From: Candidatus Latescibacterota bacterium
Lineage (GTDB): Bacteria > Latescibacterota > UBA2968 > UBA8231
Assembly: GCA_965261395.1 (NCBI GenBank)
Contig: OZ253462.1
Location: forward strand, 2,240,001 to 2,304,000
Reading direction: 5' to 3'
DNA: 64,000 nucleotides
Shown: positions 36,937 through 46,683 of the stretch, piece by piece
How positions within the stretch are numbered: position 1 is the stretch's first letter
How the letters are laid out: each line of letters starts with the position of its first letter
The notes under the pieces: generated by a model
The model's database searches: none
Told to the model about the DNA's origin: nothing
The model's input: only the letters and a program-made list of their open reading frames with translations
Translations under genes and position numbers: made by a program

Positions 36937-38026
36937 GGAGGGTTCCTTTGTGTGGATTGGACGCAGGAAGTAAGAGGGCGATTGCTCATAGCGGCGTCCA
37001 TTTGTCGATTATACTAGCGGCTATTTCATTGAATTCAATCAAGTGAAGCCCGTTGTTCAATAGCCCAGCCTTGATAACTCGGAATGACTAACCAACGCGT
37101 CACCTCATCACCGCGAGGGGTGAGCTCCCCGGATTCATCAACACAATTCATGGTAAAAACGAACTGGTCATTACGTTTTTCACCGTCCACGCAAAAAATG
37201 AGATCGACCGTAATATTTGTTATGGCGGATGTATTATCTATAATGCGAATGATGGCCGCATCAATCAGTGTCAGATCTTGCATCGTCTCACGAATTTCTC
37301 CGGCACGTCGGCTAATCGCGCGGTTGTCAAAGTAAACCGTCAACGCGCCCATACATCCAAAGTTGTTCTTCTTCCAAGCCCGCAAGAATTCAACGAGCGC
37401 TGCTTCCGGCTCACCCGAGTTGAAGGAGGCAATCTCAGACTCCGCAAGCACATTGATCCATCCCTCGAAAACCGGCCGAGGCGTCCATGCCTCAATACGC
37501 TCGCTTAGTTCTTTCGTCTGGACGTAGTTGGTGAATGTTTCGGAAAGAGATGGATTAGATGGAGGGTTCAGAGCCTCTTCCGCTTCACGAGCACGAATGA
37601 CGTCGGCAATATTGCTTAAGAAAGACCAGCATTTCGCGGTGACCAGTCGGTTGCCATATCCAAGGTCGCGGCCATGGAGGATACCATTTCGATAGGGAAA
37701 GCTGATGTGTTTTCTTGTCGTTTTGCGTCGGGTGCGGCACATCTCGCGGATCAGTTTCGGTAAAGCGTCTGGCTGTCCAGCGAGGGAATGAAGTTCTTCG
37801 AGGTTTACGCCCTCGCTGAATATTGATTTCTGGAACACATCCTCTCCGACCCCATCCGCAACGATGAACAACAAAGGCGCTGCGGCAAGATAACGAGTCT
37901 CTTGGGTCAACGTAAGCGCTTCCTGAAGTTGCTCTCTGCGAAGCTCGAACCCTTTCGTCTGACAAAGATGCTTTACAACAAAATGTAGCCTCTCACCTTC
38001 ATAATCAGTTGCTAATAGATCTTCGG

Positions 38027-39211
38027 GGCTTTGGTGCATGAATTGGTGTTTTTTTCGGTTGATCGGTTGAATAAAAACAGGCTCCTCAGTAGATTGAGCA
38101 CGACTTTCGCCAAAAAACCCATGCTTTCTCGTCCAAGGAACCTGTCATGGCCAACCTATCGTCTTGCCCCTCTTCCGTCAAGCCTGGTCGCTCGCCTCGC
38201 CGTCGCTCCAACGTCGTGTACCGGGTACGTAATTGGGCCGACTATGAGGCCGGGCTGCAACAGCGCGGTAGTCTGACGGTGTGGTTCACGCCCCAGGCCG
38301 TCGAAGCTTGGTATTATCAAGGGCCGCCTCAGCGGGGGGCGCAATATACCTTTTCGGAGGTCGCCATCCAAACGGCGTTGACGCTGCGTCTTTTGTATCA
38401 CTTGCCCCTACGCCAAACCGAGGGGTTTGTCGCTTCGGTGTTGGCCCTGATGGGCTTGGATCTGCGGGTGCCCGATCACACGACCCTGTCGCGCCGTCAG
38501 GCGGGTTTAGCCGTGGCGTGGCCGCCCCAGCGGGGAGACCAACCGATGCACTTGGTGGTGGATTCGACCGGGCTGAAAGTGTATGGCGAAGGCGAATGGA
38601 AGGTGCGTCAGCACGGCTGGAGCAAGCGGCGCACGTGGCGCAAATTGCACCTCGGGGTTAATGAAGCCACCGGCGAGATCGTCGCGCAGACCTTGACGAC
38701 GAATAGCCACGATGATGCGGGGCAGGTGGAGCCGTTGCTGGCACAGATCGAGGCCCCCGTGGAGGCGTTGGGCGGCGATGGGGCCTATGACAAACGCAAG
38801 GTGTTCAAGGCGTTGGCCGCGCCCGAGCAGGGGGCACCTATTCATCCGATCATTCCGCCGCGCAAGGACGCCAAAATCGAGCAACATGGCAACACCAACG
38901 CCGAGCCGTTGCCCCGCGATGAGACGATTCGAGCCATCCGCAAACGGGGCCGTCGAGGTTGGAAACACGAGAGCGGCTATCATCGACGCTCGGTAGCCGA
39001 AACGCAGATAGGCCGCTACAAACAGATACTTGGTGACACCTTGCGCACCCGAACCCTAACCAACCAACAGACCGAAGCGCGGTTGGGCTGTGCCTTGCTC
39101 AACCGGATGCGGGCGTTGGCGAAACCTGAGTCCTATCCGCTAACCAAAAAAGCGTAAATCACACGCGAAAGAAGCCAACACGGCCCCGACCGGTTTTCAT
39201 GCAACAAAGCC
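38027..39211 (+). mobile_element. IS5-family (IS903 group) insertion sequence, 1185 bp
   Basis: IRL GGCTTTGGTGCATGAA (38027-38042), IRR complement GGCTTTGTTGCATGAA (39196-39211); 9-bp TSD GATCTTCGG at 38018-38026 and 39212-39220. Confidence 0.95.
38147..39157 (+). CDS. IS5-family DDE transposase
   Basis: NWADY...RGSLT.W, PDHTTLSRR, VDSTGLK, WRKLH, GDGAYD, YHRRSVAET. Confidence 0.93.
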   Translation: MANLSSCPSSVKPGRSPRRRSNVVYRVRNWADYEAGLQQRGSLTVWFTPQAVEAWYYQGPPQRGAQYTFSEVAIQTALTLRLLYHLPLRQTEGFVASVLALMGLDLRVPDHTTLSRRQAGLAVAWPPQRGDQPMHLVVDSTGLKVYGEGEWKVRQHGWSKRRTWRKLHLGVNEATGEIVAQTLTTNSHDDAGQVEPLLAQIEAPVEALGGDGAYDKRKVFKALAAPEQGAPIHPIIPPRKDAKIEQHGNTNAEPLPRDETIRAIRKRGRRGWKHESGYHRRSVAETQIGRYKQILGDTLRTRTLTNQQTEARLGCALLNRMRALAKPESYPLTKKA

Positions 39212-39554: not shown

Positions 39555-39785
39555 TCATGCGCTAGGCAGTGGAACTTCCCGTTCTCCGACCCGCCATGCT
39601 GCGTAGGCTAGCGCCTGATCGATGTCTTCCTGTTCAAGATAAGGGTAGGCGCTCAGGATTTCCTCGGAGGACCGGCCGGCTGCCAAGAGACCCACGATGG
39701 TTCCAACCGTCACGCGTAGCCCCCGGATACATGCCTTGCCGCCCATAACGGCAGGGTCGAGCGTGATTCTCGATAGTCCTTCCAT
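39555..39785 (-). CDS. DUF433 family antitoxin-like protein
   Basis: RITLDPAVMGGKACIRGLRVTV...YPYLEQEDIDQALAYA. Confidence 0.88.
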   Translation of the reverse strand: MEGLSRITLDPAVMGGKACIRGLRVTVGTIVGLLAAGRSSEEILSAYPYLEQEDIDQALAYAAWRVGEREVPLPSA

Positions 39786-39890
39786 GATCCGTTTCTCCTA
39801 TTCAATCGCGCTCCAATTAATCCGAACCGCATCGACCCTATTAGTTACGCCTAGGGACTTTTCCCAGTCAACAGCCTCTTTGGAAGTGCC

Positions 39891-40103
39891 CTACCGCTCC
39901 CACAATTCGCTCAACGGCATGGTGAGTATGCGCTCGTCGGCCAATGGGAGCTTGTCGCGACCGGCGTAGAGTAGCACCCCAGACTCGAAATCCTCGCCGC
40001 AGCGATCAGCCAGCCGCACAAGCCCTTGCCCGTCTTTGGAGGTGAGCGCATTGGCGGCTTTGACCTCAATGCCCCAAGTCTTCCGGCCCCGAGTAAGGAC
40101 TAG
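39891..40103 (-). pseudogene. C-terminal fragment of an AAA-ATPase/DUF4143-type protein
   Basis: Minus-strand frame LVLTRGRKTWGIEVKAA...GVLLYAG...MPLSELWER-stop (IEVK nuclease-like motif) with no start. Confidence 0.6.
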
Positions 40104-40156
40104 ACTAAAGCCTCCCGTAGGACGGGTGCCAGCGAGCGGGGAAACAGGGAGCGACC

Positions 40157-40194
40157 AGCGTCCAATTGTCGGTTAGAGGAGCGTCCAATTGTCG
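40157..40194. repeat. 15-bp direct repeat AGCGTCCAATTGTCG x2, 23-bp period
   Basis: Exact copies at 40157-40171 and 40180-40194, just past the patatin stop. Confidence 0.7.
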
Positions 40195-40206
40195 AATGTT
40201 ACTGTC

Positions 40207-41547
40207 TCAGGTAAACATAATCCTGCCGTCTTGGAGGGGCATGTAGATGGAGTGCGCAGCGTGAACTTGCCAAGCTGCATGCGCTGCAAGACGCTGCACA
40301 GTCTCCGGGGACAAGGCAGTGAATCCAGTCTTCACTGTGTTCATCCTGTGAGCAGCATTATCTCCTCCTAGTTGCGCGTGGTACTCTTTCGCAGCAGTGA
40401 AGTCGCAGCCAACTCCTTCCAAGTAGGCGACGATACGTGCGGGATCGTCATTCGAAGGAATCGTGGCTTCGGACTCCCCAGCATGCTCGCCGAGCTCCAC
40501 GAGCCTCCATCTCGGAATTGAACTAAAGAAGGAGTTCCAACTCTGTGCCACGCGAACAAACAAGAGTGCTCGCCGTCTGCGTTTCGGCTCTTGGTCCAAG
40601 TAGCTCGCTATCCCCTTGTTCGGCACGATTGAGCCACGTCGCAACTCTTCGGCGAGCCAAGAGTGAATCAATTGATCGTGGATCTCCTGTCTTGCCCAGC
40701 GGTTCTGCTTGTCGTTCATCACTAGCATGAGCCGATCAAGGGTCCGTCCACTTAAGAGCCACATGAAGAAACCCCTGACCGAACCAACAAGCCCTCGATT
40801 CTGCCAAGGTCGGTCATGGACACCCGCATCGCTCACAACAAGGTTCCATGAGGCATAGCGTCGGCTCTTCAAAAGAGTCTGAATGCCGAGATTCTCAAGC
40901 ACACCACCGTCGGTAAGGTAAATTTTCTTCGCTCCAGCCAATGAGTCCCTAAATTGCGTTCCGGGTGGGAAGTCTCTCAGTTGCAAGGTTAGCGGTGGAA
41001 GGCCGATTGGGAACGCAGCGGAGGCAGCGACAGCACGCGCTAAGGGAAAATTGCTCCAAGGCACTACATGGGATGGTCTAGCTCCGGGGACAGTAATTCC
41101 CCAGGCAGAGAATCCGTCCCGTGAAAACTTAGCTATCTGACCGTTGTTCAATACCGTCGTGTTTATACACAAAGCCGGGCGTTCAGGCAGACGCTCTAGC
41201 GTAACTCCCTGTAACAAAACGCGATCGAAGGTATCCGCGAGCAAATGAGTTCGCGAGTACGGTACTTTAGGGATCAGCACGCGGAGCAGAGACGGCCTGA
41301 TCGACCTAGCAATGAACCCGCACAAAAGTTCTTTCTGGATACTATCAGTGAACTCCCTTACACTCTGTCCATCTACCTTTGCTGCCATCCAAGCAGCACC
41401 AAAGAGTGATCCGCCAGATACCGTAGAAACAACATCTATCTTGTCAATTAGATTCAGTTCCGAAAGCGCAGAGATCGTTCCACAATGAAATGCTGCGGCG
41501 CGAGACCCGCCTCCAGACAACGCAAGTCCGAGATCGTACATGAGCAC
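40207..41547 (-). CDS. Patatin-like phospholipase, putative defence effector
   Basis: LALSGGGSRA oxyanion motif, TVSGGS nucleophile Ser, VAASAAFP, DGG catalytic Asp. Confidence 0.87.
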   Translation of the reverse strand: MLMYDLGLALSGGGSRAAAFHCGTISALSELNLIDKIDVVSTVSGGSLFGAAWMAAKVDGQSVREFTDSIQKELLCGFIARSIRPSLLRVLIPKVPYSRTHLLADTFDRVLLQGVTLERLPERPALCINTTVLNNGQIAKFSRDGFSAWGITVPGARPSHVVPWSNFPLARAVAASAAFPIGLPPLTLQLRDFPPGTQFRDSLAGAKKIYLTDGGVLENLGIQTLLKSRRYASWNLVVSDAGVHDRPWQNRGLVGSVRGFFMWLLSGRTLDRLMLVMNDKQNRWARQEIHDQLIHSWLAEELRRGSIVPNKGIASYLDQEPKRRRRALLFVRVAQSWNSFFSSIPRWRLVELGEHAGESEATIPSNDDPARIVAYLEGVGCDFTAAKEYHAQLGGDNAAHRMNTVKTGFTALSPETVQRLAAHAAWQVHAAHSIYMPLQDGRIMFT

Positions 41548-41562
41548 TTACCGATGGACCTT

Positions 41563-43776
41563 TTAATGAGCTTTGATGTGACACTGAATCTCTGTTTCCC
41601 CAACGATCAGTACAATTCCCGGAAGTCCCTCCGACCGCATGTGCTTGGTAACGAATTCTAGAACTTGCTTATCGTCAGAACTCATTTTCAACGATATACC
41701 TGAAGGATGTGAGTGCCATTCCCCTATGTAGTGTACGGCTTGACCTGTCCATTTTTCGATTTTCTCTACGTCCTTGCGAAGTCCCACTGAGCCTCGGATG
41801 AATGCCGTTGGCCATTCTTCGCTATCGGGGGGAGCAGGTAGTGCATCCACAAGAAGAATACTCTTGCGGTGCGCGTCCACTGTCCCGACCAAGACACCGC
41901 CAGTCTCACATGGTAAAGCGCTAGAACGAAGATCGAGAAGGTGGGTCTTAAGACGGGAGTTGATGCCTATTTTCCAGTCCGATCCCTCAAACCATTGGCA
42001 GGCCGTTGCCGGTGAGCAGTGGTGCTCTACTGCTAGTTCGTCTGTCAAGCGCCAGATGGATACGAACCCCTCTTCTGTGAGTCGCTGCACTGCGCCCGCC
42101 GTGATTGCCGCATGGAGCGCCACGCGATCTTGGGGTATGTGCATCGAGATATCGGCGCACGAGCCGCCGTATCGAAGTGATGCGGGATTTTCTTGGTAGA
42201 ACTCTTGGAGGTCTTTCGTTCGAATAAGAAGCCGATGGAACTGGGCTTCCAGTTCATAAATCGTGAAAGCCCGGTCGGCGTCTTCGACAAGCATCACAAG
42301 GTATCTGCCGCTTGGACTTAAAAAAGCCGATATTCGCCGTGCCTTCGAAAAAGTGTCATCCGCGAGATGCCGCGCCACCGCGGTAGACGCGGAGAAATCG
42401 AAGACGATCTCCGCCTCATTAAGAGCCGCGGCGAGATTCCTCGCCTTGTCTCTTGGATTAAGCACATCGCAGACGAGGGCTTGTACCTTCGAGTCCTGGA
42501 CCGTGTCCATCAGCGCCGCTGCCATATACTGAGCCTTCGGGAAGCCCAAGCTCCGACTGAGCAACGCGTGTCGTGTCAGGTTATGGGGCAAAAGCACATC
42601 GTGATCAATAAGCGTCCATGAACCGAACCCCGTCCGGATCAGGTTGGACACTACTTGCGAGCCGAGAGCTCCTTGTCCCACTGCCACCGCCTTGCGCAGA
42701 TCGGGATCTCGTCCGGCAGCGCGGGCCGCTATTCGCATCGAGAGCTCAGACACCGGGTGAAGGCATACTAGCCTGACTTCTTCAGGGGTTGGATTTTCTT
42801 GAGGGATCAGAGTGCAGGCGTGTCCCTCTCTCATTTGCCATAGACCGAGGTTTTCTCCAAGTGTAGCGACTGTCTCGTCAATAGAGAACGCAAAAATGTC
42901 CGTCGCCTCTACGGCTCTACCGCTCTTTCGGAGCTTGGGCAGAACCGTTATCAGGATCGGTTTTCGGTCTAGGAGTTCCTTGTTCTCTCTCCACTTCTCG
43001 AGTCGAGACACGAGTTCCGTAACGAGGTCGATCTCCGCGGCCGAAAGCAGATCGCGAAGGTCTGCGAGCGTAAGAGGCGTATGTGCGATGATGCCATGCT
43101 CCTGCGCTTGACCGACGAAGACCGTCGCCACGGAGTGTACGACGTGCTCTTGCCCAAGATCCTCGATGTCCTCCGGATGCCGAGCTACCAGAACGGGCCG
43201 TTTCATTTCAGGCGTTTGGACGTGGATCACGTCGAGGCGGACTGGTCCATTTTCCTCCCCGAAATTCGCTGGCACGATAAGCGGAATACCTGTACCCAAT
43301 AGCAGTGGCTCCAAGGGCTGATCGTCGGCATGCAACTCATCTCGCGCCGTTGCGGCGAGCCAATTGCGAAGGACTTCTATGAAGCGCCCAGGCGTCCACC
43401 AGAGCTGGGTTTCATGCCAGGGCTCTTCAAAGAGACAAAGACTGCGAGGAACTGCCGTATCGCGTAGGTTCAAATGGGGTACGAAGGGGAAACAACGGCG
43501 CAGTGCGAAGACCTCTGGTGTCCATCTGTCATCACGCGAGAATTCGGTCGATAGCCGCTCTTGCAGACGGATATCGTGAATGCGATCTTGGGCAAGCTCA
43601 ACGTCGACCTCAAACGTGACAATATCTGTATCCTCGGTCTTGGAGAGTGATACGAGGCGGGCAAAAGGAATCTCACCTGCTCGCAGGAGCTCTGCCAACT
43701 CGCGAGCACGGGATACAAACGAAGTGCTATCGTCACACAACTCGCCTTTTGCCGCGATCCAGAGATCCTCTGTCAT
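41563..43776 (-). CDS. Fused E2-like / E1 (ThiF) / JAB protein (Cap2-Cap3-like)
   Basis: E2: VPHLN...SLCLF; E1: GQGALGS, DHDVLLPHNLTRH, GGSC; JAB: ETGGVLVG, YIGEWHSHP, SSDD. Confidence 0.88.
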   Translation of the reverse strand: MTEDLWIAAKGELCDDSTSFVSRARELAELLRAGEIPFARLVSLSKTEDTDIVTFEVDVELAQDRIHDIRLQERLSTEFSRDDRWTPEVFALRRCFPFVPHLNLRDTAVPRSLCLFEEPWHETQLWWTPGRFIEVLRNWLAATARDELHADDQPLEPLLLGTGIPLIVPANFGEENGPVRLDVIHVQTPEMKRPVLVARHPEDIEDLGQEHVVHSVATVFVGQAQEHGIIAHTPLTLADLRDLLSAAEIDLVTELVSRLEKWRENKELLDRKPILITVLPKLRKSGRAVEATDIFAFSIDETVATLGENLGLWQMREGHACTLIPQENPTPEEVRLVCLHPVSELSMRIAARAAGRDPDLRKAVAVGQGALGSQVVSNLIRTGFGSWTLIDHDVLLPHNLTRHALLSRSLGFPKAQYMAAALMDTVQDSKVQALVCDVLNPRDKARNLAAALNEAEIVFDFSASTAVARHLADDTFSKARRISAFLSPSGRYLVMLVEDADRAFTIYELEAQFHRLLIRTKDLQEFYQENPASLRYGGSCADISMHIPQDRVALHAAITAGAVQRLTEEGFVSIWRLTDELAVEHHCSPATACQWFEGSDWKIGINSRLKTHLLDLRSSALPCETGGVLVGTVDAHRKSILLVDALPAPPDSEEWPTAFIRGSVGLRKDVEKIEKWTGQAVHYIGEWHSHPSGISLKMSSDDKQVLEFVTKHMRSEGLPGIVLIVGETEIQCHIKAH

Positions 43777-44882
43777 CAGCCCGCTCGCGGTGCCGTGCGA
43801 TTCACGAGCGGAGCACCCACCATGACCTTCTTCTTCAGGGACGCGCCCGAACTTCCGATCTCGATGATGAGCCGCTCTGGGGCGCTCTTTTTGGTGTGCT
43901 CCATCGTCACGACAAACTCTCCCTGGAGACCTTTGGCAACTTTATCGTAGTAATTAGCTGCCTGCTGGTGAGGAGGATCATTCGTCTCCTCGGGCGGAAC
44001 GGGGTCGCTGGACGACACCAAGATCGCTCTGGATTGACCTTGGTTCTCGTAGAGCCATTCGACCTCTGGAACAGGCTCCGTCGAGGTCTTTCCCTTCTCG
44101 GGTCCGAGTGAGAGATAGCTGCAATGATGAGGCAACTTCACGACATCGTATTCTAGGCGGCTCTCGTTTCCGTGTGCTTTGGTCACGGTGACGATTCCAG
44201 CGAGATCTTCGTGGTCTAGGTCGGCACCTAAGAAGACACGGGTCAATCGCCCGCCAACCTTGAACATTGCTTGCAACGCAAGCGAAGTGGAATTTCTCAC
44301 GATCGCGCGGCCGTCAGAGGCCGACTCCGCAAACGGCGAGTGAACAAAGAGCTCTACTCCACCGGATGCGAACGAGAATCCCGGTACGAGGCGTCCTGCG
44401 TCGGTGATGAGGTGCGCTCGGTCGCTGAGCTTCAAGCCCTGCTGGTTGAGCCACTCCTCAAGGGATTCGGGACGCGAAAAGACACGGATGCCCTTACCCT
44501 CCTTGAGCCTGTGCCGTGCCTCGGCCCGGATAATCTTGGCCTCCTTCGCTTCGAGTGCCTCCTCCACGATAACGGCGGCGGGCACCCAAAGTTCTCCGAT
44601 CTTGATGCGGTCGTTGCTCTGATACTTGGCGGCATGGTCTAAAAAGAAAACGTCGCTGACCCCCTTATAATGATCTTCGTCGAGGTGCGATATGGCCAGC
44701 ACGTCGACATCATCGCGTGTGCCAAGGTCTTCACGCAGGGCTTTCGGAAGGTCGATACGGAGGTCATTTTCCTCATCTCCTCTGGTTGCCGCGAAATCCA
44801 TAACGAGAACGCGGCCGTCGGTCAGTTCGACTAGACAGCAATCGGCATTGCCGAGCGGATAAAATGTTAATTTTGGTGTCAT
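43776..44882 (-). CDS. Metallo-beta-lactamase-fold (ComEC/Rec2-like) hydrolase ending in ...APRAG
   Basis: FYPLGNADC, SHLDEDH, GAD, KLPHHCS; TGATG overlap with the E2-E1-JAB gene. Confidence 0.82.
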   Translation of the reverse strand: MTPKLTFYPLGNADCCLVELTDGRVLVMDFAATRGDEENDLRIDLPKALREDLGTRDDVDVLAISHLDEDHYKGVSDVFFLDHAAKYQSNDRIKIGELWVPAAVIVEEALEAKEAKIIRAEARHRLKEGKGIRVFSRPESLEEWLNQQGLKLSDRAHLITDAGRLVPGFSFASGGVELFVHSPFAESASDGRAIVRNSTSLALQAMFKVGGRLTRVFLGADLDHEDLAGIVTVTKAHGNESRLEYDVVKLPHHCSYLSLGPEKGKTSTEPVPEVEWLYENQGQSRAILVSSSDPVPPEETNDPPHQQAANYYDKVAKGLQGEFVVTMEHTKKSAPERLIIEIGSSGASLKKKVMVGAPLVNRTAPRAG

Positions 44883-44970
44883 ATCTTGTCCTCCCTTATC
44901 ATATTTGATTCTTTGTTCATCGGCGGAACTCTACTGGCCTCGATCCTAGTCTCTCCAGGACTGCACCAAG

Positions 44971-45010
44971 AAAGTATCATTTGTTAAAAATTAGAAAAGA
45001 TGATAACTTT
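44971..45010. promoter_or_regulatory. Imperfect inverted repeat in the divergent promoter region, candidate operator
   Basis: AAAGTATCAT (44971-44980) ... ATGATAACTTT (45000-45010) in an AT-rich gap between the MBL and XRE genes. Confidence 0.4.
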
Positions 45011-45047
45011 GTCAAGAGATCAATCAAATGCCCCACGAGGAGAAACA

Positions 45048-46181
45048 ATGGCTGGTGAAGAGCACATTGCCGCGAATATCGCCCGGCTACGGCTGGATCG
45101 GCAGTTGACCCAAGAGGAACTCGCCCGCAAGGCGGGACTCTCAAGGGTCGCGCTCGGAAAGATCGAACGAGGTATCGTCGTCCCACGTGCCCGGACCCTC
45201 ACCGCTATAGGAAAAGCATTAGGCGTTCCGCTCGGCGATCTCGCGACGCCTGTTCGGCCCCTTGAGACCGTGCGATTCCGCGTCCAGGCACGAGTCCACG
45301 CTCGGGCGCAGATCTTGGCCGAGGTCGCAAAGTGGCTTGACGCCTACACCCAAGTCGAAGCCGATCTCGGCCAGTCGTGTCTCTTCCGATTCAAGGCTGT
45401 TCGCACTCAGCACAGGAACCCAATGAAGGCCGCTCAGGCCGCGCGCAAAGCCATCGGGCTTAGGCCGGAAGAGCCGGTGCGCGACATCTGCGGACTACTC
45501 GAAGGCAACGGGGTGAAGCTCCTGCTCATCGAGAGGAAAAGCGACTCCTTCTTCGGACTGAGCGTCGGTGCAAGGGACGGCGGTCCTGCCGTGGTGGTCA
45601 ATACTTGGGAGCGGATCTCAGTGGAGCGCTGGATCTTCACCGCGGCACACGAACTCGGCCATTTGTTGCTCCACCCCACCGAGTATCGACGCGATGCCAC
45701 CGAACTCCCCGTGCAGACAGAGCGCGAGGCCGACGCCTTTGCGAGCCACTTCCTGATGCCAGAAGCCGCGTTCGCCTCGGAGTGGGACGAGACCCGGGGA
45801 CACCCGCTCCTCGTCCGCGTCCTCAAGGTCAAGCGCATCTTCCGAGTGAGTTACAAAACCGTGCTCTATCGGCTGGTCGAGTCTGGTCGTGAAACCTCGG
45901 ATATCTGGCGTGCATTCCAGCTCCAGCATCGCGGTTACTTCGGCAAGACGCTTCGCAGGACCGACGAACCCGAAGCACTTGAAAGAAGCGAGTTCGCCTG
46001 GAACTGGAGTCGCTCCGGCGAGCCCGAGGGCCTCTCCCGGCACGACTTTGTCGAGGGTCGCCTCTCGCGGCTCGTGCGACAGGCGCTCGAACAGGAGCAC
46101 ATCTCACTCGGGCGTGCCGCCGAGATTCTGGGGCTGGCCCGGGAGGAGATGAGGAGGCAGGCACGTGAGTGGGTGGGGTAG
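45048..46181 (+). CDS. XRE HTH fused to ImmA/IrrE-family Zn metallopeptidase
   Basis: LTQEELARKAGLSRVALGKIERG HTH; FTAAHELGH (HExxH); EREADAFASHFLMP; GAGGAG RBS before ATG 45048. Confidence 0.9.
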   Translation: MAGEEHIAANIARLRLDRQLTQEELARKAGLSRVALGKIERGIVVPRARTLTAIGKALGVPLGDLATPVRPLETVRFRVQARVHARAQILAEVAKWLDAYTQVEADLGQSCLFRFKAVRTQHRNPMKAAQAARKAIGLRPEEPVRDICGLLEGNGVKLLLIERKSDSFFGLSVGARDGGPAVVVNTWERISVERWIFTAAHELGHLLLHPTEYRRDATELPVQTEREADAFASHFLMPEAAFASEWDETRGHPLLVRVLKVKRIFRVSYKTVLYRLVESGRETSDIWRAFQLQHRGYFGKTLRRTDEPEALERSEFAWNWSRSGEPEGLSRHDFVEGRLSRLVRQALEQEHISLGRAAEILGLAREEMRRQAREWVG

Positions 46182-46683
46182 ATGGCGATGGCCCAGACCG
46201 TGCTGCTCGCCGACGCAGATGTGCTCATTGACTACCGCGAGTCGGAGATCAAGATCCTTGAACTCGTGGTGCAGCATATAGGGAGAGTGGTCGTTTTGGC
46301 TCCCGTGCTTGATGAGGTGCAGGGCGTGACGCCGGCGCAATGTGCACAACTCGGGATTGAGGTCGTCGAGGTCGAGACAGAGCAGTTGGTACGGGCTTCA
46401 GAGGTCGAGTCCCGCGTGTCCTTCAATGATCGCCTCTGCTTGGTCACGTGTCGCGAAGAGGGTTAGGACATGCGTCACAAACGACGGTGCGCTCCGACGG
46501 CTCTGCGAGCGCCACGGCGTGGCGACGCGATTCGGCCTCGGTCTTATGGTAGATCTGGTCGCTGCCGGTGCCCTCACCCGGCAGCGTGCCATGGCTGTCG
46601 CCCGCCAAATCCAAGCGTCGAACCCGCTCCACATCAACGAGCGCGTAATTCAGCGGTTCTTGGAAGCCCTTGGGGAGACTTGA
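46182..46683 (+). pseudogene. PIN-domain protein with +1 frameshift near 46465
   Basis: LADADVLID, VLDEV, SFNDRLCL, then GGT TAG; removing one A gives GWTCVTNDGALRR... continuing to TGA 46683. Confidence 0.72.

What the first reader, a model, noticed from the sequence alone, without database searches (positions are those of the whole stretch)
40207..44882. Cyclase-free CBASS-like operon: MBL hydrolase + E2-E1-JAB fusion + patatin phospholipase
Seen: three tightly linked minus-strand genes (TGATG overlap, then a 15-bp gap) with intact-looking catalytic motifs and no CD-NTase or ubiquitin-like gene. Established: type II CBASS uses Cap2 (E1-E2) and Cap3 (JAB) with a CD-NTase and often a patatin effector (CapV). 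MBL plus E2-E1-JAB neighbourhoods are known from comparative genomics, and I recall the two-gene form being reported as antiphage (6A-MBL); this needs verifying. Inference: this is a three-gene variant with a lipase effector whose activation cannot rely on a locally made cyclic oligonucleotide, implying another trigger such as direct conjugation or an MBL-generated product.
Basis: partly seen in the sequence, partly recalled or inferred. Interest (0 to 1): 0.8.

Follow-up and report, generated by a model that had tools for sequence, protein, structure and literature searches.

The report
6A-MBL antiphage operon with patatin effector
These three genes are a copy of an already named bacterial anti-virus system (6A-MBL) that also carries a membrane-cutting lipase, an add-on that recurs in many related loci and is sometimes fused to the ligase, yet is missing from the curated descriptions I could check.

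Summary
Three co-directional minus-strand genes (MBL 43776-44882, E2-E1-JAB 41563-43776, patatin 40207-41547) have a 1-nt TGATG overlap and a 15-nt gap, and all expected catalytic residues are present.

The first two genes pass NCBIfam's equivalog cut-offs for the named anti-phage 6A-MBL system: 371.5 bits against a cut-off of 220, and 611 against 320. The core is therefore known, not new.

The MBL protein is ComEC-like. It ends in a flexible tail, ...PRAG. This tail motif is present in 77 of 78 related loci, terminal in 51 and followed by 1-6 extra residues in 26. The MBL itself is therefore the likely ubiquitin-like substrate.

The patatin is a real partner.
- It lies directly downstream in 16 of 80 related loci.
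- The same slot holds a 4-TM protein in 23 of 80 and small TM proteins in 8 of 80.
- 42 of the top 43 longer relatives of this patatin are single-chain E2-E1-JAB-patatin fusions.
- A same-genus genome lacks exactly these three genes.

No cyclase lies nearby. The genome's only CD-NTase is 3.95 Mb away, in an IS-disrupted CBASS with its own SAVED effector.

How the lipase is switched on is inferred, not shown. This scan has noted the same architecture before on other DNA. I rate it a new variant of a known kind, of moderate interest.

The parts
43776..44882 (-). 6A-MBL MBL-fold enzyme (368 aa), ComEC-like. It has a disordered C-terminal tail ending ...APRAG, and Gly368 is the predicted conjugated residue.
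   Evidence: NCBIfam NF058524: 371.5 bits against a cut-off of 220. Metal ligands conserved. AF2 model pLDDT 89.9, with residues 353-368 below 50. Best fold match is the ComEC MBL domain 9ic4, E 8.4e-14; the sequence profile also hits 9ic4 at E 2.2e-7. Tail motif found in 77 of 78 loci.
41563..43776 (-). cap2_3: a single-chain E2-like / E1 (ThiF) / JAB (JAMM) protein of 737 aa.
   Evidence: NCBIfam NF058523: 611 bits against a cut-off of 320. Pfam Prok-E2_A, ThiF and Prok-JAB. Cys114, Cys540, E624, H688 and H690 are invariant in 31 sequences.
40207..41547 (-). Patatin-like phospholipase (446 aa), the predicted membrane-lytic effector. Its Ser44/Asp213 dyad is intact.
   Evidence: Pfam PF01734, E 5.8e-22. 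Invariant GGGxR, S44GG and D213GG. AF2 model pLDDT 78.7, pTM 0.82. Fold matches are PlpD, CapE and CapV at E about 1e-7. No PADLOC family at E<=0.1.
45000..46181 (+). Divergently transcribed single-chain XRE-HTH + ImmA/IrrE (Peptidase_M78) protein. It is a candidate CapH/CapP-like regulator of the operon.
   Evidence: Pfam HTH_3 (27-81, E 3.1e-13) and Peptidase_M78 (206-292, E 1.7e-16). A 77%-identical copy sits in the same divergent position in L007. HTH/M78 genes lie upstream of the MBL in 8 of 80 loci.
44883..45027 (-). Intergenic region between the regulator and the MBL gene, with one sigma-70-like site (TTGATT-16-TATCAT).
   Evidence: It is the only promoter-like site in 39700-45100, against 2.7 expected in shuffles, so this is weak evidence.
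40195..44958 (.). Indel unit: the stretch holding exactly the three genes. It is missing from a same-genus genome that keeps both flanks.
   Evidence: blastn of window 30000-52000 against L105 (G011). Window 40107-40194 matches L105 5176-5089, and window 44959-46703 matches L105 5016-3274. About 72 bp lie between these in G011.
40158..40194 (+). Two direct copies of GCGTCCAATTGTCG at the downstream edge of the cassette.
   Evidence: exact copies at 40158 and 40181. The G011 print shows three copies in tandem, two exact and one with a mismatch; the exact-match scan scored one.

Best explanation
This is a 6A-MBL anti-phage system in a three-gene form.

Shown by sequence: an operon encoding a ComEC-like metallo-beta-lactamase-fold phosphodiesterase/nuclease, an E2-E1-JAB fusion (cap2_3) and a patatin phospholipase.

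Inferred by analogy with type II CBASS Cap2/Cap3 acting on the cyclase C-terminus:
- The E1 domain adenylates the terminal Gly368 of the MBL's flexible ...PRAG tail.
- The tail passes through Cys540 and Cys114 to a target amine. This primes or relocates the MBL enzyme.
- The JAB domain reverses the conjugation. In homologues with 1-6 extra residues after the motif, it would also trim the tail.

The patatin is the swappable membrane-destroying executioner of an abortive-infection response. It occupies a slot that other 6A-MBL loci fill with 4-TM, small-TM, PLD or second-MBL proteins.

My preferred reading (inferred, about 45% of the weight) is that the lipase is controlled at the protein level by the ligase/MBL machine. 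This could be through a complex, clustering or conjugation, rather than through a cyclic nucleotide.

The divergent HTH-M78 protein probably keeps the operon repressed until a stress or infection cue arrives (inferred).
For: Core identity. NF058524 scores 371.5 against a cut-off of 220, and NF058523 scores 611 against 320; both are equivalog models. An MBL gene lies directly upstream of the ligase in 78 of 80 related loci. The other two loci begin at a contig end.

The tail as a ubiquitin-like substrate. [RK][AVMH]G lies within the last 12 residues in 77 of 78 MBLs. It is terminal in 51 and followed by 1-6 residues in 26. It is also present in pGOX1, a Klebsiella plasmid and the fused-type system of G021. 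The tail is disordered in the model.

The enzyme is active. Metal ligands are at least 99% conserved in 75 sequences.

Patatin linkage.
- A same-strand patatin starts within 160 nt in 16 of 80 loci spanning many phyla.
- 42 of the 43 best 'longer' hits to the patatin profile are E2-E1-JAB-patatin single chains of 1027-1228 aa, with patatin at the C-terminus.
- Among 168 genomes of the phylum, the four best patatin matches (at least 304 bits) are all next to or fused with cap2_3. The remaining 8 genomes score at most 192 bits and have no cap2_3 hit within the roughly 1.5-kb flanks.
- The three genes are present or absent as one block between same-genus genomes.
- Gluconobacter oxydans pGOX1, a genome listed in the 2006 founding table, carries MBL + ligase + patatin.

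Modular slot. The third-gene type needs 31 changes on a 78-row ligase tree. Patatin alone needs 13, of which at least 10 are forced by well-supported branches.

Literature. [quoted passage not shown]
Against: - No experiment bears on this locus, and anti-phage activity is known to me only through citations of van den Berg et al. 2024, which is not held.
- 26 of 80 loci have no same-strand ORF of at least 100 aa starting within 160 nt of the ligase stop; two of these end at a contig edge. The core therefore works without a lipase, and the lipase may be an optional second arm rather than the executioner.
- The 80 loci are the 80 best of 494 confirmed matches. They are biased towards relatives of this ligase, and my ORF calling was naive.
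- Frequent swapping between unrelated effectors with no shared domain (hhalign probability 0.1) is easier to reconcile with a generic or diffusible signal than with a specific protein interface.
- The regulator also occurs without the cassette (G011), so it may not be dedicated to this operon.
Confidence: 0.8

Rival explanations
1. Second-messenger relay, as in CBASS. The conjugation-primed MBL enzyme makes or releases a diffusible small molecule, for example a nucleotide or lipid-derived product of its phosphodiesterase activity. This molecule binds and activates the patatin, or in other loci the TM effectors.
For: - MBL metal ligands are conserved in loci with and without a third gene.
- Effectors are swapped often between close ligase sisters, as in signalling systems.
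- The nearest solved patatin structures include the nucleotide-activated CapE and CapV.
- PMC11601596 calls the conjugated proteins 'signaling enzymes'.
- The MBL fold hits after ComEC include phosphodiesterases: Pce/CbpE (1wra), NAPE-PLD (4qn9) and a cAMP-bound MBL (7e3w).
Against: - 42 natural ligase-patatin fusions are not expected if the signal diffuses.
- Two-gene loci would have a signal but no receiver.
- The patatin and 4-TM families share no detectable sensor domain.
- Only 2 of 17 members (1 of 17 on a second model) weakly match PADLOC's CBASS phospholipase models, and the window's protein does not.
- The best fold match of the MBL is a nuclease domain (ComEC).
Confidence: 0.2
2. The patatin is an unrelated neighbour, either a separate defence or lipid-metabolism gene. 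It is merely packed beside a two-gene 6A-MBL system in a variable island.
For: - The founding description says the operon is 'usually' two genes (PMC1779556).
- NCBIfam has only two 6A-MBL models, and no such model matches the patatin or 4-TM families.
- Klebsiella plasmid copies are two-gene.
- The region is a low-GC variable island with an IS element.
Against: - Patatin sits in the same position and strand in 16 of 80 loci across phyla.
- It is fused to the ligase in 42 protein clusters.
- The gap is only 15 nt.
- The three genes behave as one indel block.
- There is a score gap between ligase-linked patatins and other patatins.
Confidence: 0.03
3. The patatin is a CapV-like receiver for cyclic oligonucleotides made in trans by the genome's own type II CBASS.
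For: The genome encodes one CD-NTase with Cap2/Cap3-like genes. The patatin fold resembles CapV and CapE.
Against: - That CBASS lies 3.95 Mb away and has its own SAVED-domain effector.
- Its Cap2 gene is split by an IS5-family insertion.
- The patatin travels with 6A-MBL in other genomes and is fused to its ligase.
- The window's patatin matches no PADLOC CBASS phospholipase model.
Confidence: 0.02
4. The cassette is not defence. It serves a mobile element or DNA uptake and processing, with a ComEC-like nuclease controlled by conjugation and the lipase acting on the envelope.
For: - ComEC is the closest structure.
- cap2_3 homologues are common on plasmids: 293 PLSDB records, of which 134 are predicted conjugative.
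- Some sources name the homologues 'integrative and conjugative element protein (TIGR02256 family)'.
Against: - NCBIfam's curated name is 'anti-phage', and reviews cite experimental anti-phage activity.
- The companions are typical of defence islands: an HTH-M78 regulator, toxin-like membrane effectors and sporadic distribution (5 of 41 genomes including the window's own).
Confidence: 0.05

Closest known systems
6A-MBL anti-phage system (operon type 6a of Iyer, Burroughs & Aravind 2006; NCBIfam NF058523 + NF058524)
   Same: Both core proteins pass the equivalog cut-offs. The gene order (MBL, then the E2-E1-JAB fusion) is the same. The MBL metal site and C-terminal ...RAG tail are conserved.
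   Different: The accessible descriptions give two components: 'usually two genes' in 2006, and two NCBIfam models. This locus has a third, tightly coupled patatin gene and a divergent HTH-M78 regulator. I could not read the 2024 paper that named the system, so it may already mention accessory genes.
Type II CBASS with a patatin effector (CD-NTase + Cap2 + Cap3 + CapV/CapE)
   Same: E1/E2-like ligase plus JAB peptidase acting on the C-terminus of an operon-encoded enzyme. The patatin-fold effector is in the last position. The effector slot is modular. An HTH/M78 (CapH/CapP-type) regulator is present.
   Different: No CD-NTase is in the operon. The conjugated enzyme is an MBL-fold hydrolase. 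E2, E1 and JAB are one chain. The patatin does not match PADLOC's CBASS phospholipase models. Ligase-effector fusions exist.
CapH/CapP transcriptional switch of CBASS and other defence operons
   Same: An XRE-type HTH plus an ImmA/IrrE (M78) metallopeptidase, encoded divergently upstream of an immune operon. The genome's own CBASS has the two-gene form.
   Different: Here both domains are in one 393-aa protein, followed by a PIN gene. The same protein occurs in a relative that lacks the cassette. Function was not tested; I saw the CapH/CapP paper only as a search listing.
Bil / Bub bacterial ubiquitination-like defence pathways
   Same: E1, E2 and JAB chemistry used in phage defence.
   Different: Those pathways encode a separate ubiquitin-like protein and separate E1 and E2 proteins. 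Here there is no Ubl gene, and the tail of the MBL enzyme plays that part.

Membership tests
6A-MBL anti-phage system | MBL-fold protein of the NF058524 family | tested here: met
   371.5 bits against a cut-off of 220, covering model positions 1-346 of 346
6A-MBL anti-phage system | Single-chain E2-E1-JAB protein of the NF058523 family | tested here: met
   611 bits against a cut-off of 320. Pfam Prok-E2_A, ThiF and Prok-JAB occur in that order.
6A-MBL anti-phage system | The two genes are adjacent and co-directional, with the MBL first | tested here: met
   1-nt TGATG overlap. The same order occurs in 78 of 80 related loci.
6A-MBL anti-phage system | Intact catalytic residues: MBL metal site, E2 Cys, E1 Cys and nucleotide loop, JAMM motif | tested here: met
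   The assignment of Cys114 and Cys540 as catalytic is by position and invariance, not by structure.
6A-MBL anti-phage system | Protection against phage | not testable with these tools
   Known only from citations of van den Berg et al. 2024. The paper is not held.
Type II CBASS | CD-NTase (SMODS) gene in the operon | tested here: not met
   The only SMODS match in the genome is at C1:6232512-6232940, 3.95 Mb from the window.
Type II CBASS | Cap2-like E1/E2 and Cap3-like JAB | tested here: met
   PADLOC E1-E2 models (best E 3.3e-30) and JAB models (4.2e-22). The relationship is at domain level only.
Type II CBASS | Nucleotide-activated CapV/CapE-type phospholipase | tested here: inconclusive
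   The patatin fold matches CapE and CapV at E about 1e-7, no better than PlpD. The window protein hits no PADLOC phospholipase model; 2 of 17 relatives hit one weakly and 1 of 17 a second. Ligand binding was not testable.
Bil/Bub ubiquitination-like systems | Separate ubiquitin-like protein gene | tested here: not met
   There is no free ORF of at least 60 aa in or between the three genes. No HMM search for beta-grasp proteins was run.
CapH/CapP regulators | HTH repressor plus M78 protease encoded divergently from the immune operon | tested here: met
   HTH_3 and Peptidase_M78 lie in one protein 117 nt upstream on the other strand. Cleavage and DNA-damage response were not tested.

The most novel reading that the evidence does not exclude
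6A-MBL is a nucleotide-free immune relay. Ubiquitin-like conjugation of a ComEC-like MBL enzyme through its own ...PRAG tail directly switches on interchangeable membrane-destroying effectors: patatin, a Csx27-like 4-TM protein, or PLD. These effectors are docked on, or in some lineages fused to, the E2-E1-JAB ligase. Protein conjugation would then replace the second messenger of CBASS. A bolder form is that the conjugation target is the effector itself or a membrane amine, tethering the nuclease at the membrane.
Probability: 0.3. Interest if true: 0.75.

Novelty: new variant of a known kind. Interest (0 to 1): 0.45.

Why it matters
The 6A-MBL system has a name and reported anti-phage activity, but I found no published mechanism for it.

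In the 80 loci sampled, 54 (about two thirds) carry a same-strand third gene. In 47 of the 80 that gene is membrane-directed: patatin in 16, a 4-TM protein in 23 and small TM proteins in 8. The patatin is naturally fused to the ligase in dozens of protein clusters.

This turns an unexplained two-gene system into a testable sensor/ligase-plus-effector design. It asks whether ubiquitin-like conjugation alone, without a cyclic nucleotide, can fire an abortive-infection effector.

It also suggests that curated annotation (two NCBIfam models, none in PADLOC v2.0.0) misses a component.

Tried and rejected
Complex prediction. I ran the ligase E1-JAB part (residues 340-737, alignment A1) against the patatin (A4). 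The result was 'no answer', score 0.00 against a mark of 0.32, and the controls were not run. This is not evidence either way. The full ligase plus patatin exceeds the 1000-residue limit, so it was not tried.

Shared sensor domain. Profile-profile comparison of the 4-TM family (A2) with the patatin family (A4) found nothing (probability 0.1).

Third-component models.
- Pfam gave no consistent family for the 22 4-TM proteins.
- NCBIfam has no 6A-MBL-named model for either third-gene family.
- 4 of the 22 4-TM proteins weakly resemble Csx27 (best 44 bits, below the cut-off of 65).

Literature.
- '6A-MBL' is held in 2 papers.
- Further searches (the last two found nothing) and passage look-ups gave no text linking patatin or TM genes to 6A-MBL.
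- The two Cap2 papers I queried contain no 'MBL', 'lactamase' or 'Pycsar'.
- van den Berg et al. 2024 is not held, and supplements are closed, so prior description cannot be excluded.

Rejected readings.
- Trans-activation by the genome's CBASS, because that CBASS has its own SAVED effector and an IS-split Cap2.
- Chance adjacency of the patatin.

Promoter and terminator scans were no better than shuffles.
Full report
OBSERVATION.

The window holds three co-directional minus-strand ORFs at the reported coordinates:
- 43776..44882, 368 aa
- 41563..43776, 737 aa
- 40207..41547, 446 aa

The first stop and the second start share one base (TGATG). Fifteen bases separate the second stop from a GTG start. 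All other ORFs of at least 60 aa in this span overlap these genes in other frames.

The region sits in a low-GC stretch. GC is 0.49-0.57 between about 36.5 and 45.5 kb, against 0.59-0.66 on both sides.

WHAT THE GENES ARE.

Domain searches gave the following.
- Pfam finds Prok-E2_A, ThiF and Prok-JAB, in that order, in the 737-aa protein, and Patatin in the 446-aa protein. It finds nothing in the 368-aa protein.
- NCBIfam places the 368-aa protein in NF058524, 'anti-phage 6A-MBL system MBL-fold protein' (371.5 bits, cut-off 220).
- NCBIfam places the 737-aa protein in NF058523, 'anti-phage 6A-MBL system cap2_3 protein' (611 bits, cut-off 320). Both are equivalog models.
- PADLOC v2.0.0 has no 6A-MBL model. 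It matches the ligase only to CBASS E1-E2 and JAB models, matches the MBL weakly to MBL components of DRT, Lamassu and Avs1, and does not match the patatin.

The name '6A' goes back to row 6a of Table 1 in Iyer, Burroughs & Aravind 2006. [quoted passage not shown]

Anti-phage activity is attributed to van den Berg et al. 2024 in passages of a review and two preprints. I could not read that paper.

CATALYTIC INTEGRITY.

- In 31 aligned ligases, Cys114 (E2 region), the G367xG369xxG372 loop, Cys540 (E1 region) and the JAMM residues E624 and H688xH690 are invariant.
- In 75 MBL homologues, H66xD68xD70H71, H181, D221 and H252/H253 are at least 99% conserved.
- In 17 patatins, GGGxR, S44-G-G and D213-G-G are invariant.

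THE MBL IS THE LIKELY CONJUGATED SUBSTRATE.

The window's MBL ends ...APRAG. I examined 78 MBL genes upstream of related ligases.
- 77 carry [RK][AVMH]G within the last 12 residues.
- The motif is terminal in 51 and followed by 1-6 extra residues in 26.
- The one exception, L028, is a truncated ORF.

The tail motif also occurs in Gluconobacter pGOX1 (...PRAGRWR), in a Klebsiella plasmid (...PRAGVSNQ) and in the diverged fused-type system of a same-genus genome (...RVGFGKYL).

The AlphaFold2 model of the MBL is confident overall (pLDDT 89.9), but residues 353-368 fall below 50. This indicates a flexible tail.

The pattern parallels ubiquitin-like precursors and the CD-NTase C-terminus used by Cap2/Cap3; that comparison rests on established knowledge and was not tested here. 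[quoted passage not shown]

The closest solved structure is the MBL domain of ComEC, by fold (9ic4, E 8.4e-14) and by sequence profile (E 2.2e-7). Phosphodiesterases such as Pce/CbpE follow.

IS THE PATATIN PART OF THE SYSTEM?

This sample leans towards relatives of this ligase.

An MBL gene lies directly upstream in 78 of 80. The other two loci start at a contig end.

A same-strand ORF of at least 100 aa starts within 160 nt of the ligase stop in 54 of 80. These 54 divide as follows.
- 23 belong to one family of about 250 aa with two N-terminal and two C-terminal hydrophobic segments. It has no Pfam family.
- 16 are patatins. One of them (L016) is truncated, and one (L082) was recognised after correcting the frame.
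- 8 fall in three small TM families.
- 2 are second MBL-fold proteins.
- 5 are singletons.

Of the 26 loci without such an ORF:
- two end at the contig edge;
- L053 has a convergent patatin directly downstream;
- L059 has a PLD-like gene after a small ORF.

The patatin loci come from records labelled as many different phyla.

On a maximum-likelihood tree of 78 ligases, the third-gene type needs 31 changes. The tree was a quick search under LG+G4. Three loci (L048, L069 and L075) were dropped because my extraction hit stops. Patatin alone needs 13 changes, at least 10 of them forced by well-supported branches. Close sisters differ in effector, for example L008 (small TM) and L012 (patatin), or L032 (patatin) and L044 (4-TM). 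The slot is therefore modular, as in CBASS.

FUSIONS.

- 42 of the 43 best hits are chains of 1027-1228 aa. 40 carry all four Pfam domains (PF14457, PF00899, PF14464 and PF01734); the two shortest, P0130 and P0153, lack the E2 model PF14457.
- In these, the ligase part lies N-terminal and the patatin occupies roughly residues 650-1150.
- A simple motif check found GGGxR, xxSxG and DGG in 39 of 42. The three misses may reflect my fixed offset.

The domain order equals the gene order here. This is the strongest evidence of functional coupling.

SPECIFICITY.

Among 168 genomes of the window's phylum, 12 have a match to the patatin profile at E<=1e-20.
- The four best (at least 304 bits) are the window, two unfused relatives and one fused form. 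All lie beside or within cap2_3.
- The other eight genomes (at most 192 bits) show no cap2_3 within the roughly 1.5-kb flanks fetched.

PADLOC's CBASS phospholipase models match weakly: one model hits 2 of 17 of these patatins and a second hits 1 of 17. The AF2 model (pLDDT 78.7, pTM 0.82) resembles PlpD, CapE and CapV about equally (E about 1e-7, 13-19% identity).

THE CASSETTE AS A UNIT.

The system is sporadic among relatives. 5 of 41 genomes (the window's own plus 40 relatives) have a cap2_3 match over the cut-off; apart from the window's own, that is 2 of 24 in the genus.
- G006 carries the regulator, MBL, ligase and patatin at 86-94% protein identity in the same place.
- G021 carries a fused ligase-patatin with a diverged MBL.
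- G011 keeps both flanks at about 90% DNA identity but lacks window 40195-44958. That is exactly the three genes, with about 72 bp in their place.
- G011 does retain the HTH-M78 gene and an intact PIN gene. Divergent from them it has an AAA_14/DUF4143 gene, of which the window keeps only remnants.
- L007, from a different context, has regulator-MBL-ligase-patatin at 71-80% identity.

REGULATOR.

The divergent 393-aa protein combines HTH_3 and Peptidase_M78. HTH/M78 genes lie upstream of the MBL in 8 of 80 loci; 5 are divergent (one of these split into two genes) and 3 are co-directional. Klebsiella and Hymenobacter plasmid copies have a divergent WYL protein instead. A regulatory role is inferred by analogy with CapH/CapP, a paper I saw only as a search listing.

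NO LOCAL CYCLASE.

The genome's single SMODS match is 3.95 Mb away. It lies in a type II CBASS with separate E1 and JAB genes, a SAVED-domain effector and two-gene CapH/CapP-like regulators. Between the cyclase-side fragment and the E1 gene sits an IS whose 1185 bp are 100% identical to the IS at window 38027-39211.

MECHANISM.

Shown: gene content, conservation, the tail motif, the modular slot, the fusions and the indel.

Inferred:
- The E1 adenylates Gly368.
- A thioester relay runs through Cys540 and Cys114.
- The MBL is conjugated to an unknown acceptor.
- The JAB reverses the conjugation or trims the tail.
- The MBL acts as a nuclease or phosphodiesterase.
- The patatin destroys the membrane as the abortive-infection step.

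The fusions favour protein-level control of the lipase. The frequent swapping, together with the lack of any shared domain between the patatin and the 4-TM family, favours a generic or diffusible cue. I put about 45% on protein-level control, 20-25% on an MBL-made messenger, and the rest on other arrangements.

NOVELTY.

The core is a known, named system. The patatin-bearing three-gene form is common: it occurs in 16 of 80 sampled loci and in a genome listed in the 2006 table (pGOX1). It is absent from the curated models and from the texts I could search. Earlier notes of this scan describe the same architecture on other DNA. The primary 2024 paper and all supplements were unavailable, so prior description cannot be excluded.

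Noticed in passing
G000:C1:6225000-6237000 (L091): The same genome has a type II CBASS: a SMODS cyclase, a 212-aa fragment, an E1 (ThiF) gene, a JAB gene, a SAVED-domain effector and divergent HTH + M78 genes. An IS5-family transposase sits between the 212-aa fragment and the E1 gene, so the Cap2 gene appears to be split.
   Followed up: partly
window 38027-39211: An IS5-family element (DDE_Tnp_1_5/DDE_Tnp_1 transposase at 38147-39157) is 100% identical over 1185 bp to the copy inside the distant CBASS locus. The element is therefore recently active and has landed in or beside two defence loci.
   Followed up: partly
window 46182-46683: The PIN-domain gene after the HTH-M78 regulator is frameshifted here, giving two ORFs of 94 and 113 aa. 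It is an intact 166-aa ORF in G011. The regulator's C-terminus has a weak UPF0175 (antitoxin-like) match, which hints at a toxin-antitoxin-like pair.
   Followed up: partly
window 39832-40194: These are remnants of an AAA_14/DUF4143 ATPase gene. The gene is intact (415 aa) in G011, and about 980 bp of it are missing in the window.
   Followed up: partly
window 40158-40194; L105 5060-5130: The 14-nt unit GCGTCCAATTGTCG occurs twice in the window, at the cassette edge. The G011 print shows three tandem copies (two exact, one with a mismatch) between the regulator and its divergent gene. It may be an operator or a recombination site.
   Followed up: no
L009, L010 and 21 other loci (alignment A2 holds 22 of the 23): The commonest third gene of related 6A-MBL loci is a protein of about 250 aa with four TM segments and no Pfam family. 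4 of 22 weakly match NCBIfam Csx27, the type VI-B CRISPR accessory membrane protein (best E 2.4e-11, 44 bits, below the cut-off of 65).
   Followed up: partly
L045:8192-9220, L063:8254-9288, L059:9112-9849: Other occupants of the third slot are a second MBL-fold protein (two loci) and a PLD-like (PLDc_2) protein after a small ORF (one locus).
   Followed up: no
PLSDB plasmids (L088, L089, L090): cap2_3 homologues occur on 293 plasmid records, 167 of them Klebsiella. The Klebsiella and Hymenobacter copies examined are two-gene with a divergent WYL-domain protein. Gluconobacter oxydans pGOX1 has the patatin form.
   Followed up: partly
P0164, P0215: Patatins of the same profile are also fused to STAND-type NTPase domains (PF13401/PF20703/PF13191). 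The same lipase module therefore appears to be reused by another class of defence-like proteins.
   Followed up: no
window 37035-38039 and 39555-39785: A 334-aa ORF has no Pfam family and lies in the lowest-GC part of the island (GC 0.49). A 76-aa DUF433 gene lies between the IS and the cassette. Neither is explained.
   Followed up: no
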